Shown here: positions 7,400-63,770 of the stretch, in pieces | How the letters are laid out: each line of letters starts with the position of its first letter | Numbering within the stretch: position 1 is the stretch's first letter | NCBI RefSeq assembly: GCF_004010195.1 | Contig: NC_057721.1 | Span: forward strand, 19,134,327 to 19,198,326 | Source of the DNA: Chiloscyllium plagiosum | Lineage: Eukaryota | Direction of reading: 5' to 3' | Length of the DNA: 64,000 bases | Notes under the pieces: model-generated | Seen by the model: only the letters and a program-made list of their open reading frames with translations | What the model was told of the DNA's origin: nothing | Databases searched by the model: none | Program-made: the position numbers and the translations under genes

Positions 7400-9085
7400 T
7401 TCCATGATAGCCACAGTACCAGTGCTCTTGTTATCGCCAGTGAATCAGCCAGTCCAGACTACTGAAATCTGTGCCAAGTCAATGCAGTTCAAATCCAGGC
7501 CTTCAAGGCTTGTGGGTGCCTCAGGCCCTTCCACATTTGCATCCTGCTCTGTCGAAAGTCAGTGGTCTTCAGTGGTAGCACTGCATAGGAGCACCAAGCT
7601 AGGCAAAGACACAAGAAGAACTACGAATAAGGGACCGGAAGTTGAGCACTGCAATGGAACATCAGTGTTTTTCGATGATGTTGGTATTGAATGGTTTCTT
7701 CATGGTGACATTTATTTCACCATAGTGGCCAAAAGGACACTAGACCCATCCATCAGAGAGGGATGGAAATGTATAGAACTGTTGTGTGTGGGGTTCCATT
7801 CAGTAGAACTGGGGTCTAACCAATCCTCATGTACAGTGTGTATGTGCTGGTTGCCTGGTCCCTTTCTTCTCCTCTTCCCCCATTTCCGCTACCACTTGTG
7901 TTGGCAAAAGCTGGACTGTCATCATTTCCAGGTTGTGGAGAATGCAACAGACCATTGCAGAGCAGGATTTCTGCTTCACTGAGTACCATGGCTTCTTTTG
8001 AAACAGTTGAGGAAATAGAATTGTTCATATATAACCCCAACTGAAATTTTTCTCACATTTACCCAAGGCAGCATTGCTGTCTTACGAATGCTCGCCCTGT
8101 GCTGGAGTGTGGAGAGAAGTCAACACCATGTGTAGTGTGGACAACTCTTGACACTGAGCTGCTGATCCTTTGGTTCAACATGGTGGTGGAAAGATTGCTG
8201 GATCAGCAACTGGCTTGGAATAAATGGACTATGAATGATGCTAAGATGAGGATGGGATGGGCATTATCACACATCAATGTTCCTTTTAAGTTACTCTAGT
8301 GCACAACCATGTAGTGAGTGGGAAACAAAAATAGAAATTGATGGAAAAGCTCAGCAGGTCTAGCAGCATCTAGGGAGAGACATCAGAGTTAACATTTCAG
8401 GTCCAGTGACAATTCTTCAGAAGGGTCTGATCTGACGAAGGGTCACTGGTCCTGAAACATTAACTCTGATTTCTCTGCACAGATGCTGCCAGACCTGCTG
8501 AGCTTTTCCAGCAATTTTTGTTTTTTGTCTCTGATTTACAGCATCTGCAGTTGGTTCAGTGTAGATGTGGTGAGTGGGAATGTGTTGTGCATGGAGCAAA
8601 CAGATCATGCACAGATAATTTTTACTTGATGATACACTCATGCTTGATTCTGTATGGAGTTACACAATGCAACAGGTGGGCCACACACAGCAAGCAACAG
8701 TTAAAGGGAACATCATTACACATCCATTGTGTGGTAAGTGAATGGTAAGTATGTTTTGCAGTATATATACATCACAATATAGGTATACAGCTCCTTCAGA
8801 ACTAAGGATAAATTCTCTGCTGGCATACAGTTTCTGATATCTCCTGGGTGTAATGTTGGCTGGTGAACTGAGAGATGTTAACTATGTCTCGAGTCCCAGC
8901 CAGGAAGGATTTGTACATGAGACATTTCCAAGCCATGGTCACCTTGAGGGCCAGTGGCAGCGACATGCTGACCCCCTTCTGAGGCTGCAGCTCTGATTCT
9001 AGGGCATAGCAAAGTTCTGTGACCACGTCCTCTGCGAATTGAAGTTGCCAAAAGCACTGCTGCTAACTTCGTTATAAGCCAGAAA
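7400..9085 (-). mobile_element. Decayed PIF/Harbinger transposase (HARBI1-like)
   Basis: 8802-9026 reads VTELCYALESELQP...SLPLALKVTMA...SFLAGTRDIVNISQ (Harbinger HTH region); 7929-7955 reads MVCCILHNL (C-terminal DDE_Tnp_4 motif). Boundaries approximate. Confidence 0.65.
8325..8564. mobile_element. Palindromic Penelope-derived short element with hammerhead core
   Basis: Imperfect inverted arms; CTGACGA...GAAAC at 8432-8458; flanking near-duplication atgtagtgagtgggaa (8309-8324) and atgtggtgagtgggaa (8565-8580). Confidence 0.7.
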
Positions 9086-9089
9086 ACTA

Positions 9090-9400
9090 TTAGAGTCATA
9101 GAGCTATACAGCATGGCAACAGACCCTTCAGTCCAACCAGATATCCTAAATTCATCTGGTCCCATTTGCAAGTATTCGGCCCATTTCCCTCTAAACCCTT
9201 CCTGTTCATTTACCCATCAAGGTGCCTTTTAAATGTTGTAATTTTACCAGCCTCCATACTTGTTCTGGTAGCTCAATCGATATACGCACCATGCTCTGTG
9301 TGAAAAAGTTGTTCCTGAAATCCCTTTAAATCTTTCCCCTCTCACCTTAAACCTGTGCCCTCTAGTATTGGACTCCTGTGAAAAGGACCTTGGCTATTCA
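9090..9400 (-). mobile_element. CR1 LINE 3' end
   Basis: Same 3' UTR (agagtcatagag...gacccttcagtccaac) as other young CR1 copies. Confidence 0.75.
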
Positions 9401-9806
9401 CCTGATCATTGGTCTGGCCTCCACAATTCTCGTGGTAATTCCAGATATTCATTGCCACTTGGGAGAAGACGTTCCTTCATATTTCAGTTTGAAATGAGTG
9501 TTTACTTATTCTGTAACTCTGTTAAGGATTCCCCAAATCTTCTCAATATGACACACCCCCTCAGAGCCTTGACTGTTTCAATAAGGTCACAGCTCATTTT
9601 CTTAACTCTAATGAATAAAGGCCTAACCTGTTTAGCTGTTCTTGACCCTTCCATCCCAGGAATCAGCCCAGTGAATCTCTCTTTTAAACTGCCGCCAAAG
9701 CCTATATATCCTTTCTAAATACAGAGTCAAAACCTGTACACATTACTTGAGAATCAGCTTCACCAAGAACCCTGAACAACTATAACAAGACTTCCCTATT
9801 TCTGTA

Positions 9807-10021
9807 CTGAAAATGTGTTGCTGGAAAAGCGCAGCAGGTCAGGCAGCATCCAGGGAACAGGAGAATCGACGTTTCGGGCATAAGCCCTTCTTCATTCCTG
9901 AAGAAGGGCTTATGCCCGAAACGTCGATTCTCCTGTTCCCTGGATGCTGCCTGACCTGCTGCGCTTTTCCAGCAACACATTTTCAGCTCTGATCTCCAGC
10001 ATCTGCAGACCTCACTTTCTC
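9807..10021. mobile_element. Young perfect-palindrome Penelope-derived element
   Basis: 88-bp perfect inverted arms 9807-9894 and 9899-9986, 4-nt loop; perfect 16-bp TSD cttccctatttctgta at 9791-9806 and 10022-10037. Confidence 0.88.
9898..9925 (+). ncRNA. Minimal type I hammerhead ribozyme core
   Basis: CUGAAGA-A-GGGC(UUAU)GCCC-GAAAC-GUC: conserved core boxes, stem II, palindromic ACGU in place of stem III; stem I weak. Confidence 0.6.
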
Positions 10022-61024: not shown

Positions 61025-62000
61025 CAGTCATAGAATCATAGAGATGTACAGCATGGAAACAGACCCTTCGGTCCAACTTGTCCATGCCAACCAGATATCC
61101 CAACCCAATCTAGTTCCATTTGCCAACATTTGCCCCATATCCCTCTAAACCCTTCCTATTCATATACTCATCCAGATGCCTTTTAAATGTTGCAATTGTG
61201 CCAGCCTCCACCACTTCCTTTGGCAGCACATTCCAAACATGTACTTCCCTCTGCGTGAAAATGTTGCCCCTTAGGTCCCTTTTATATCTTCCTCCTCTCA
61301 CCTTAAACCCATGTCCTCTAGTTCTGGACTCCCTCACCCCAGGGAGAAAACTTTGTCTTTTTATCCTATCCATGTCCTTCATAATTTTATAACCCTCTAT
61401 AAGGTTACCCCTCAGCCTCCGACGCTCCAGGGAAAACAGCACCTGCCTATTCAGCCTCTCCCCATAACTCAAATCCTCCAACCCTGGCAACATCCTTGTA
61501 AATCTTTTCTGAACCCTTTCAAGTTTCACAACATCCTTCTGATAGGAAGGAGACCAGAATTGCACGCAAATTCCAAAAGTAGCCTAACCCAATGCCCTGC
61601 ACAGCTGCACCATGCCCTCCCAACTCCTGTACTCAATACTCTGACCAATAAAGGAAAGCATACCAAGCGCTTTCTTCACTATCCTATCTACCTGCGACTC
61701 CACTTTCATGGAGCTATGAACCCGCACTCCAAGGTCTCTTTGTTCAGCAACACTCCCCAGGACCTTACCATTAAGTGTATAAGTCCTTCTAAGATTTGCT
61801 TTTCCAAAATGCAGCACCTCACATTTATCTGAAGTAAACTTCATCTGCCACTCCTCAGCTCATTGGCCCATCTGGTCAAGATCCTGTTGTAATCTGAGGT
61901 AACCCTCTTCGCTGTCCACTACACCTCCAATTTTGGTGTCATCTACAAACTTACTAACTATACCTCCTATGTTCACATCCAAATCATTTATATAAATGAG
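61025..62000 (-). mobile_element. CR1 3' fragment in GTPBP8 intron
   Basis: KCEVLHFGKANL, LERVQKRFTRMLPGL, WNVLPKEVV. Confidence 0.9.
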
Positions 62001-63285
62001 GAAAACAACAAGCAATAACAACTTCTGTTGTTGAAAGTTAGAGACATTTCATCAATTTTCTTTGTCTTATACTCAGCAGGACAAGCCATAAGAATGACAA
62101 TAATGGGGCAAAGACTGGAATAGTGCTGAGTAGCAGTATATTCTGATTGGTAGAGGCATCGCCATGGAGAATGTAGCAGTTGAAGATGATTGTCAGTTAA
62201 CCACTAGGCTTTGTTTAGATTTCAAACCAGGCAGGTTGACACTGGTCAGGGTGTGAGAATCACTGGGTTGGAGAAAGTGGAAACTGTCAGACCAAATAAT
62301 GCTGAGTGCAACTTGTAAGGGTAATGAGGATCTGAAGTCAATGTGTTGGGTAATGGAAAACCTGGGGAAGTGGTTGGTGACAGACAGAAGATAGGATGCG
62401 GGTAGCAAAGTCTACAGTAAAGAGATATTTGAAGATATTAAGCATGGGATTAACAAAGGTGTCGATGAAGTTTATATCAGCAGTGCAGTGGGCATAGAAG
62501 AAGAGATCATTTGAGAGTCAAATCCAGTGAATGATAAGACTCCATGATAAGAAGTGAAACCAAAGGAGCACAAAGTAAGGTGAAAGCTGCCAGAGGAGGA
62601 TTTTTTTTAAATGAGGCCAGATGTGGGAATGAGTAAAGAATACAGTCTCAGCAGATAGCAAGATATTAAATGGAAGCTGTATTAAAGTCTGTAAAGTTGG
62701 TAAGACATATAATTCACCCAAGGAGAAAACAGAACAATTCTCCCTTTGACTATGGTTCCAGAGTTCTGGTACACTGAATAATGCAGTAATCTCCCTGTCT
62801 CCAGTATTCTGTACCTTTTGGTATTGGAATTGGTGCCAACTATATCAACTCTCGGAAGAGTTTCAACTATTGAATGTGGATTGGGGAATAAAATTAATTT
62901 TGACTAAACCATGAAAGTGATGGTCATAGGATGGAGAGATTTTAATTTCTCTTGTGAACATAAGCATTGCTGGCTGGCCAACATTCATTGGCCTTGAGAA
63001 GGTGGTAAGCCACCTTTTTGAACTGCTGCAGGTTGACTCACAATGCTCTTAGGAAAGAAATTCCAGGATTTTGACCGAGTGACACTGAAAGAATGGCAAT
63101 ATGCTTCCACGATTGGATCGTGAGTAGCTTAGAAGGTAACTTTCAGTTGGTGCTGTTTCCACTAAATTGTTACAGTATCTATACATACAACTTGAAGCCA
63201 AGGGTTTGAAGCCCTTACACAACTCAATCAAAATATCATGGAATTGAGATCTTTGATATGAATGGTATTTTTGTTTCCTTTGCAG

Positions 63286-63384
63286 GTTTGTTTTATAGGC
63301 AGAAGTAATGTGGGAAAGTCTTCATTGATAAAAGCATTGTTTTCCCTGGTTCCTGGCATTGAAGTTAGAGTTTCAAAAAATCCA
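63286..63384 (+). CDS. GTPBP8: GTPBP8 second coding exon (G1/P-loop); gene continues beyond the window
   Basis: ttcctttgcag| [33 protein letters not shown] |gtgagt; 99 nt. Confidence 0.95.
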
Positions 63385-63619
63385 GTGAGTATTTACATTT
63401 TGTACTTCGTGAAATGCACATTTATTTTGTTTCAGGTAATCAATATATACCATACTTCACTGACATCATCTGTGATATCCTGAACATCCTGACTCCAAAG
63501 TTAGAGGTTCTTCAGGTACTCCTCTTCTTTCCCCTGAATCCCTTTGTAATCCCATAACACTCCTGCTAACCTTAAGTTGATCGCCCAAAGACTACTTTTC
63601 TAAAAAACACAAGTACCAC

Positions 63620-63770
63620 GGTGCTGTAAATCAGAGATAAAAATAGAAATTGCTGGAAAAGCTCAGTAGGTCTGGCAGCATCTGTTGGAAGAAATCAGAG
63701 TTAACACTTCAGGTCGAGTGACCCTTCTTCAGGTCACTCAACCCAAAATTTTAACTCTGACTTTACTTAC
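63620..63770. mobile_element. Penelope-derived element, partial palindrome
   Basis: Same subfamily as 8325-8564. Confidence 0.65.

What the first reader, a model, noticed from the sequence alone, without database searches (positions are those of the whole stretch)
8325..63770. Dense family of short palindromic, TSD-flanked Penelope derivatives carrying hammerhead cores
Seen: over a dozen copies of several subfamilies (8325, 9807, 11555, 13085, 18430, 19200 twice, 27700, 35108, 37450, 38740, 42125, 46789, 57158, 63620), many tail-to-tail inverted, ending cagcatctgcag, several with 11-16 bp TSDs. The best-preserved have CUGANGA-stem-GAAA at the palindrome centre. Established: Penelope-like elements carry minimal type I hammerheads and often insert with an inverted terminal repeat. 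Inference: a high-copy non-coding, ribozyme-bearing SINE/MITE-like system in sharks, and a large source of long dsRNA hairpins.
Basis: partly seen in the sequence, partly recalled or inferred. Interest (0 to 1): 0.7.

Follow-up and report, generated by a model that had tools for sequence, protein, structure and literature searches.

The report
Penelope run-off stubs bearing hammerheads
These short, often mirror-image repeats are end-pieces of Penelope-type jumping genes that fill a shark-like genome, not a separate mobile family; most begin at the same base as the element's longest copies, often after an extra G, so they are likely DNA copies that ran off the capped, uncut front of the element's RNA.

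Summary
The repeats are real: 16 family loci in the window, 9 palindromic; 28,555 exact genome hits for one 36-nt hammerhead core. They are not an independent SINE/MITE. The same ~130-nt arm ends RT + Zn-linker + GIY-YIG Penelope-like elements (Neptune-type) and also forms their 5' end; two window copies still carry RT or endonuclease pieces. Palindromes are head-to-head (65 vs 0), usually one long and one short 3' end (the known PLE 'tail'), TSD mostly 14-15 bp, with varied junctions. Truncation is not random: 72 of 95 core-bearing arms stop at -6..+1 before CUGA, where long 5' ends also start, with excess G one base upstream (68 of 100; solo arms 16 of 30; weaker in a second subfamily). Likely mechanism: RT primes at two internal sites in the 5' UTR from both nicks and runs off the capped, uncleaved RNA end. 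Hammerhead covariation lies between families; activity is untested. Architecture and hammerhead are known PLE features. The scan noted the same, including the extra G, on other DNA.

The parts
8325..8564 (.). Family B head-to-head palindrome; two intact hammerhead cores (C3 at 8420 on -, 8432 on +); tail on right arm; 16-bp TSD 8309-8324 / 8565-8580 (1 mismatch)
9807..10021 (.). Young family A palindrome: short arm (-, starts at +2), long arm with tail (+, starts at -4, core C3 at 9898); 16-bp TSD 9791-9806 / 10022-10037; predicted ~88-bp perfect hairpin (-188 kcal/mol)
11517..11618 (-). Family B solo arm, decayed core, begins at -3 with G before it
13085..13187 (-). Family B solo arm, intact core (C3 at 13181), begins at about -5
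18420..19126 (-). Longer family B PLE fragment: endonuclease C-terminus (18962-19126), 3' UTR, decayed hammerhead and tail (18420-18564); interrupted by the nested palindrome
   Evidence: 37% to family A EN, E 6e-7
18562..18745 (.). Older A-like palindrome nested in the family B 3' UTR; 13-bp TSD 18553-18565 / 18746-18758 (1 mismatch)
19203..19580 (.). A-like palindrome lacking the core (arms from about +24 and +29), duplicated in tandem with its flanks (19203-19358, 19425-19580)
27700..27864 (.). Family A palindrome, long arm from +7 (-), short arm from +46 (+); 14-bp TSD 27686-27699 / 27865-27878
35108..35208 (+). A-like solo arm without core, with tail; 11-bp TSD 35097-35107 / 35209-35219
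37455..37545 (-). Decayed family B solo arm, no core
38560..38655 (+).
38736..38815 (+). B-like solo arm, intact core at 38740
42124..42320 (.). Old palindrome of a further family (D), core at 42193 on -, tail on +; no long partner element identified
46787..47014 (-). Family A copy with internal jump: PLE RT fragment joined to 3' UTR (from -54), hammerhead (C3 at 46877), short end; 12-bp TSD; inserted in a LINE ORF
   Evidence: (tblastn E 6e-11, alignment partly over the LINE flank)
57158..57373 (.). Older A-like palindrome, long arm from -2 (-), short arm from +17; 14-bp TSD 57146-57159 / 57374-57387 (2 mismatches)
63620..63770 (.). Family B arm with tail (-, from about +1) plus a short inverted piece starting in stem II

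Best explanation
The copies are terminal pieces of several endonuclease-bearing Penelope-like retrotransposons (Neptune-type), and most short ones are likely cDNAs that the element's RT primed inside the 5' UTR and ran off the likely capped, uncut 5' end of the element's RNA. Shown: the same arm (hammerhead, short end near +90, tail to +126; +1 = C of CUGA) sits at the 3' end of RT/EN copies and at the 5' end of the element, where it runs on to an ATG at about +163; short arms and long 5' ends start at about -3; palindromes join one long and one short arm head-to-head inside a 14-15-bp TSD; both arms share subfamily alleles. Inferred: transcription starts at A(-3) of an initiator-like TCA(T/G)TT, which is also the first base of hammerhead stem I; GIY-YIG nicks both strands 14-15 nt apart; each nick primes at one of two internal sites (as shown in vitro for the anole element); the two cDNAs join by microhomology; the extra G copies the cap. 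The hammerheads in the stubs are passengers, and in palindromes are predicted to be locked in the long hairpin.
For: Upstream walk gives 3' UTR, EN (Pfam GIY-YIG E 3e-4), C-X4-C-X2-C linker and YIDD RT; longer homologs carry RT and GIY-YIG Pfam domains, best named ones from a bamboo shark at 75-78%; 18 of 20 long RT loci end in the arm at 88-100% identity. Of 30 loci from a 5' walk, 8 have the arm directly before the body; 4 start at -5..-2, 4 further inside, none upstream of -5; 5 of 30 tail-extension loci run well into the body. 65 head-to-head vs 0 tail-to-tail pairs; 56 of 65 long+short; TSD 14-16 bp in 32 of 65. 72 of 95 core-bearing arms start at -6..+1, 0 at -34..-7, 23 further up; genome-wide 8,782 of 28,555 keep the 7 upstream bases. 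Loose ends pile at -3 in reads and contigs of other runs. Base at -4 in arms stopping at -3: G in 68 of the first 100 listed vs 26% background and 0 of 55 long copies; solo arms 16 of 30 after removing 2 misclassified and 1 duplicate from 19 of 33 (p 0.001), two with G outside the TSD. Arms of one palindrome share minor alleles 28 of 34 vs 0.12 shuffled. Literature: PMC11167929 (two internal RT starts = tail; both strands cut and extended; uncut RNA is the template), PMC3846280, PMC8557442 (inverted pLTR, tail, TSD), PMC2377424 (start in pLTR), PMC4859970 (cap-derived G in L1/SVA).
Against: No RNA 5' ends were seen: neither lay showed a place where many molecules begin or end, and reads on the body were ~2 deep vs ~1000 on the arm. 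In palindromes the G can come from the opposite arm by microhomology. In the second subfamily solo arms had G in only 3 of 13, overall 46 G / 44 A / 10 T of 100. No intact partial-tandem source (3' UTR promoter + ORF) was found among 30 loci. In the unselected sample only 13 of 43 young arms start at -8..+1, 9 at +2..+15 and 13 further downstream, so early termination and end-trimming also contribute. One junction (long arm +10, short arm 0) recurs 6 times in 42. No long partner was found for family D.
Confidence: 0.72

Rival explanations
1. Same PLE origin, but the 5' hot spot comes from RT stalling or folding back at the hammerhead structure (or self-priming on an antisense template, as proposed in PMC3846280) while copying the 3' pLTR, not from a capped RNA end.
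For: -3 is also the edge of stem I; secondary breakpoints at +6 and +10 fall in stem II and use stem microhomologies; arm-to-arm allele sharing fits fold-back copying too; G excess is weak in solo arms of the second subfamily.
Against: Copies that continue into the ORF body also begin at -5..-2 and never further up; no arm ends at -34..-7; G excess in solo arms of the main subfamily; -3/-3 junctions sharing AT recur.
Confidence: 0.17
2. An independent non-autonomous SINE/MITE-like or retrozyme-like family: short or palindromic copies are themselves transcribed from an internal promoter and re-mobilised in trans.
For: Near-fixed ends; very high copy number; D. virilis Penelope has an internal promoter (PMC2377424 passages); the +10/0 junction recurs 6 times; PLE-derived retrozymes exist in vertebrates (bioRxiv 10.64898/2026.07.22.740005).
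Against: No private sequence; continuous lengths up to RT-bearing copies; 34 junction types in 42 pairs, the recurrent one on several haplotypes and once with opposite polarity; no tandem arrays in the window apart from one local duplication; the anole protein needs RNA downstream of the RT starts (PMC11167929), which stubs lack.
Confidence: 0.08
3. Hammerhead self-cleavage creates the template ends, so the stubs are copies of cleaved or circular RNA.
For: A few arms start at +29, the predicted cut (4 of 194 young arms; window 19203). In the main subfamily the cut product begins with the same five letters as the G-marked starts, so a template switch could add the G.
Against: Most arms read through the cut site to -3; only 2 of 43 unselected young arms start at +28..+31; G:T is still 46:10 in the subfamily whose cut product differs; no read ends at the site.
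Confidence: 0.03

Closest known systems
EN+ Penelope-like element insertions with inverted pLTR, one-sided 30-40-nt tail and TSD (Adineta Pen2/Pen2a, PMC3846280; general scheme PMC8557442; passages read)
   Same: Head-to-head inverted 5'-truncated copy, tail on one side only, TSD, heavy 5' truncation; C-terminal GIY-YIG with CX2-5CxxC linker (Neptune/Nematis trait).
   Different: Here both halves are usually reduced to ~90-130 nt, number in the hundreds of thousands, and start at one base; those passages give no such hot spot.
Poseidon of Anolis carolinensis (PAc), PMC11167929 (main text read)
   Same: Two internal RT starts that define the tail; both strands cut and extended; hammerhead just upstream; uncut RNA is the template.
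   Different: Other clade; PAc ORF starts in stem II and RT starts lie in the ORF, whereas here the ATG is at about +163 and both starts are in the 5' UTR; no TSD, palindrome or cap analysis there.
[quoted passage not shown]
   Same: CUGANGA, extra nt between 9 and 10.1, G10.1-C11.1, no real helix III with palindromic ACGU/AGCU, short stem I; mostly single motifs from truncated PLEs; dual motifs on opposite strands noted.
   Different: Sharks not in the parts read; counts here (28,555 for one exact core) exceed the 4,000-9,000 given for coelacanth and Xenopus; stem II is 4-6 bp.
Non-LTR retrozymes (bioRxiv 10.64898/2026.07.22.740005; parts 1-3 of 5 read)
   Same: Non-coding, hammerhead-bearing, derived from PLE pLTRs, present in a chondrichthyan.
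   Different: Defined as head-to-tail tandem arrays with a hammerhead per unit; these are dispersed solo or head-to-head inserts with TSDs.

Membership tests
EN+ Penelope-like element | Single ORF with PLE RT and C-terminal GIY-YIG linked to the repeat | tested here: met
   DKG, YIDD, GIY-YIG, then 3' UTR and arm; 18 of 20 long loci; window pieces. Seen across broken copies, no single intact ORF.
EN+ Penelope-like element | pLTR sequence present at both 5' and 3' ends | tested here: met
   Arm at 3' end and at 5' end running into the ORF; an intact partial tandem was not found.
EN+ Penelope-like element | Optional 30-40-nt tail on one side; inverted head-to-head copy; TSD | tested here: met
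   3' ends bimodal at +77..98 and +118..126; 56 of 65 pairs long+short; TSD mode 14-15 bp.
Neptune clade | CX2-5CxxC Zn-finger-like linker between RT and EN (shared with Nematis) | tested here: met
   C-X4-C-X2-C before GIY-YIG translations; trait per PMC8557442.
Neptune clade | RT phylogeny groups with reference Neptune elements | not testable with these tools
   No Repbase/Dfam references held.
Minimal type I hammerhead | CUGANGA and GAAA boxes, extra nt, paired stem II with G10.1-C11.1 | tested here: met
   pairs 10.1-10.4 paired in 206-217 of 220 (A), 20-23 of 24 (E), 10-12 of 14 (B); extra nt A in 216 of 220. Hits were required to carry near-exact boxes.
Minimal type I hammerhead | Compensatory changes in stems | tested here: met
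   Between families only: 10.2 G-C vs U-A, 10.3 G-C/A-U/C-G, 10.4 C-G/G-C/U-A; stem I differs at two pairs between A and B and stays paired (read by eye). Within a family changes look like neutral decay.
Minimal type I hammerhead | Self-cleavage (as dimer or protein-assisted) | not testable with these tools
   No biochemistry; no read-end pile-up at +29 in one polyA run; Rfam models gave no hit.
SINE | tRNA/7SL/5S-derived Pol III head and own body | tested here: not met
   No tRNA in window; no such Rfam hit; the whole unit is PLE terminus.
MITE | Fixed internal sequence between TIRs, copied as a unit, short fixed TSD | tested here: not met
   34 junction types in 42 pairs; asymmetric ends; TSD 11-17 bp.
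Non-LTR retrozyme | Head-to-tail tandem units each with a hammerhead | tested here: not met
   Window self-comparison shows only one tandem pair, a flank-including duplication without cores; genome-wide arrays not searched.

The most novel reading that the evidence does not exclude
In shark Neptune-type PLEs the hammerhead is the capped first ~32 nt of the mRNA, and the commonest transposition product is a two-ended run-off from the 5' UTR: one nick primes at +126, the other at +90, both on the same uncut RNA. The genome is thus a natural record of hundreds of thousands of PLE TPRT intermediates that fixes the transcription start, explains inverted pLTR plus one-sided tail, and implies the ribozyme acts as a decapping/off switch rather than making the template, while seeding roughly 180,000 hairpins.
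Probability: 0.5. Interest if true: 0.6.

Novelty: new member of a known kind. Interest (0 to 1): 0.42.

Why it matters
As a family it is ordinary: PLE end fragments with a known ribozyme motif and known architecture. The value is mechanistic. How PLEs make inverted pLTRs and tails, and what their hammerhead does, are stated as open in PMC8557442 and PMC11167929. Here the sharp start at -3, shared with long 5' ends, the extra G and the one-long-one-short rule give a concrete, testable model from tens of thousands of young copies. About 2% of sampled DNA and some 50 hairpin inserts per Mb may also matter for ADAR editing or dsRNA sensing in sharks, which is untested.

Tried and rejected
Rfam scan: only sub-threshold miRNA-hairpin matches from the palindromes, no hammerhead. 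DNA search of the genome with the whole palindrome found nothing because common words are skipped; the Pfam GIY-YIG genome search gave one weak unrelated-looking hit, not followed. No RNA holder listed on record. Run X22 laid no reads, no test. RNA lays (one polyA single-cell run whose species label matches DNA holders; not shown to be the window's species) gave no start or end pile-ups and cannot show small or circular RNA; A>G/T>C tallies were not clearly different from DNA contigs and cannot show editing without matched DNA. MFE folding of monomer or dimer did not give the active hammerhead fold, uninformative for such minimal motifs. Cleavage-site origin of ends rejected (few starts at +29). 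G at -4 as a subfamily allele rejected (0 of 55 long copies; one long-type G variant, L168, lay outside that filter). Repbase/Dfam comparison not possible. The Lunse et al. dimer-hammerhead paper is recalled only, not read. Paper searches for Penelope+hammerhead+shark, shark genomes+Penelope and PLE+hammerhead+TSS+pLTR listed nothing that describes this hot spot; supplements were not opened and might hold shark entries.
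Full report
Coordinates on the element: +1 is the C of CUGA, 0 the base before it; the predicted cut lies between +28 and +29.

Observation. Self-comparison and inspection confirm family sequence at all 15 listed places plus a nested palindrome at 18562. Nine are palindromic, seven single-armed. Both hammerhead boxes are intact in 6 of 15 listed loci. The two copies at 19200 are one insertion inside a local duplication. Rfam found no hammerhead at E<=10 and ARAGORN no tRNA. 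One exact 36-nt core occurs 28,555 times in the 3.56-Gb genome, control 0. In 635 kb of sample (60 stretches of 10 kb plus the window, which was chosen for density) there are 107 insertions, 32 head-to-head, 14.2 kb in all; crude extrapolation is 600,000 insertions and 180,000 palindromes. Motifs with stem II of 4 bp or more number 47 against 0-3 in ten shuffles.

What it is. Walking upstream from the core leads through a pyrimidine-rich 3' UTR into a GIY-YIG endonuclease, a C-X4-C-X2-C linker and an RT with DKG and YIDD; the closest named proteins are from a bamboo shark. Of 20 long RT-bearing loci, 18 end in the window's arm at 88-100% identity. Walking further 5' reaches the same arm again: it continues past +126 to an ATG near +163 and the N-terminal ORF. 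Of 30 loci in that walk 8 had the arm directly before the body; 4 began at -5..-2, 4 further inside, none upstream. The window holds the link itself: an RT fragment in the 46789 copy and an endonuclease C-terminus in the 18430 copy of family B; two family B copies elsewhere also lie downstream of RT/EN matches. The linker motif points to Neptune (or Nematis) by PMC8557442; no tree was possible.

Anatomy. In the sample plus 87 core-selected loci, 3' ends of 194 young arms are bimodal (+77..98 and +118..126). Pairs are head-to-head 65 times, tail-to-tail never; 56 of 65 join a long and a short arm; TSDs are 14-16 bp in 32 of 65, undetected in 14, mostly older or split alignments. This is the inverted-pLTR-plus-tail pattern of PMC3846280 and PMC8557442 (passages), and the two ends match the two internal RT starts shown for the anole element, which cuts and extends both strands (PMC11167929). 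In 42 well-aligned pairs there are 34 junction types; the commonest (6) lies on several haplotypes and uses a microhomology; the two arms of one insert share minor alleles in 28 of 34 cases against 0.12 in shuffles. So palindromes are built at each insertion from one template or subfamily.

The 5' ends are not random. Of 95 arms with the exact core, 72 start at -6..+1, none at -34..-7, 23 further up; genome-wide 8,782 of 28,555 keep seven upstream bases (point mutations lower this somewhat). In the unselected sample the hot spot is broader: 13 of 43 at -8..+1, 9 at +2..+15, 13 downstream, 8 upstream. Reads and contigs from other runs show loose ends at -3. Position -3 is the A of an initiator-like TCA(T/G)TT in families A and B (Inr consensus recalled) and the first base of stem I. 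Arms that stop at -3 have G before them in 68 of the first 100 of 5,033 hits (tallied by hand) against 26% background and 0 of 55 long copies. Palindromes confound this, so solo arms were checked: 19 of 33, or 16 of 30 after dropping two misclassified and one duplicate (p 0.001). In a second subfamily the count was 46 G, 44 A, 10 T of the first 100 of 2,291 (many A's are -3/-3 junctions), but only 3 of 13 solo arms. Untemplated G is the accepted cap mark of L1 and SVA (PMC4859970 passages), and PLE starts lie in the pLTR (PMC2377424, PMC8557442 passages). The cap reading is therefore supported but not uniform, and no RNA 5' end was observed.

Hammerhead. The motif fits the minimal PLE hammerhead of PMC4209133: extra nucleotide, G10.1-C11.1, palindromic four bases in place of helix III. 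Stem II differs in sequence and length among four families yet stays paired; within a family, changes look like decay. Most copies read through the cut site, only 4 of 194 young arms start at +29, so uncut RNA was the template, as in the anole assay. In palindromes the cores are predicted to be buried in hairpins of -80 to -188 kcal/mol. Activity is untested.

RNA. In one polyA single-cell run, about 2,000 reads per 2% of the run lie on the arm on both strands, most running on into unrelated flanks, a few across inverted junctions (12 reads at one joint); the element body is about 2 deep. Copies are thus transcribed as passengers; discrete small or circular RNAs, editing and dsRNA were not shown. 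In the window only a BTB-Kelch exon at 27-2102 (-) marks a host gene among 40 of 153 ORFs scanned; whether the repeats are intronic is unknown.

Verdict. Real, abundant, and a known kind: PLE end stubs with inherited hammerheads. The SINE/MITE reading fails its tests. The notable part is the shared, G-marked start, which suggests 5' run-off from internal priming and makes PLE mechanism testable; three paper searches did not list a description of it. Earlier scan notes, read after I had reached this reading, say the same for this and other shark genomes; they are not independent support.

Noticed in passing
window 27-2102 (-): 692-codon open frame with BTB, BACK and Kelch domains (KLHL-like host exon).
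   Followed up: no
window 38560-38655 and 2086-2132: Second hammerhead family (E) with 5-bp stem II and AGCU palindrome; common genome-wide, also forms head-to-head inserts; partner ORF not identified.
   Followed up: partly
L038:9647, L040, L082 and others: Further hammerhead family (F; extra U, 6-bp stem II, clear stem I) next to weak PLE RT/EN matches; most copies keep a long upstream region, unlike families A and B.
   Followed up: partly
L369:995-2094: Internally deleted element whose 5' arm (G-marked start at -3) and 3' arm belong to different subfamilies: a chimera or template switch.
   Followed up: no
palindrome junctions, e.g. L089, L232, L260, L348: Short fillers at junctions are repeated pieces of the hammerhead region, resembling templated insertions of microhomology-mediated repair.
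   Followed up: no
window 26718-27356 (-): Open frame with a SCAN domain match (E 6e-7), possibly a Gypsy-type remnant.
   Followed up: no
window 4203-4870, 9090-9376, 14034-16414, 22983-24709, 29130-30556, 47120-49618, 58117-58749, 61025-62005: Many LINE 3' fragments and RT pieces; several PLE stubs sit inside LINEs.
   Followed up: no
window 45278-45598: 160-bp direct tandem duplication, 97.5% identical.
   Followed up: no
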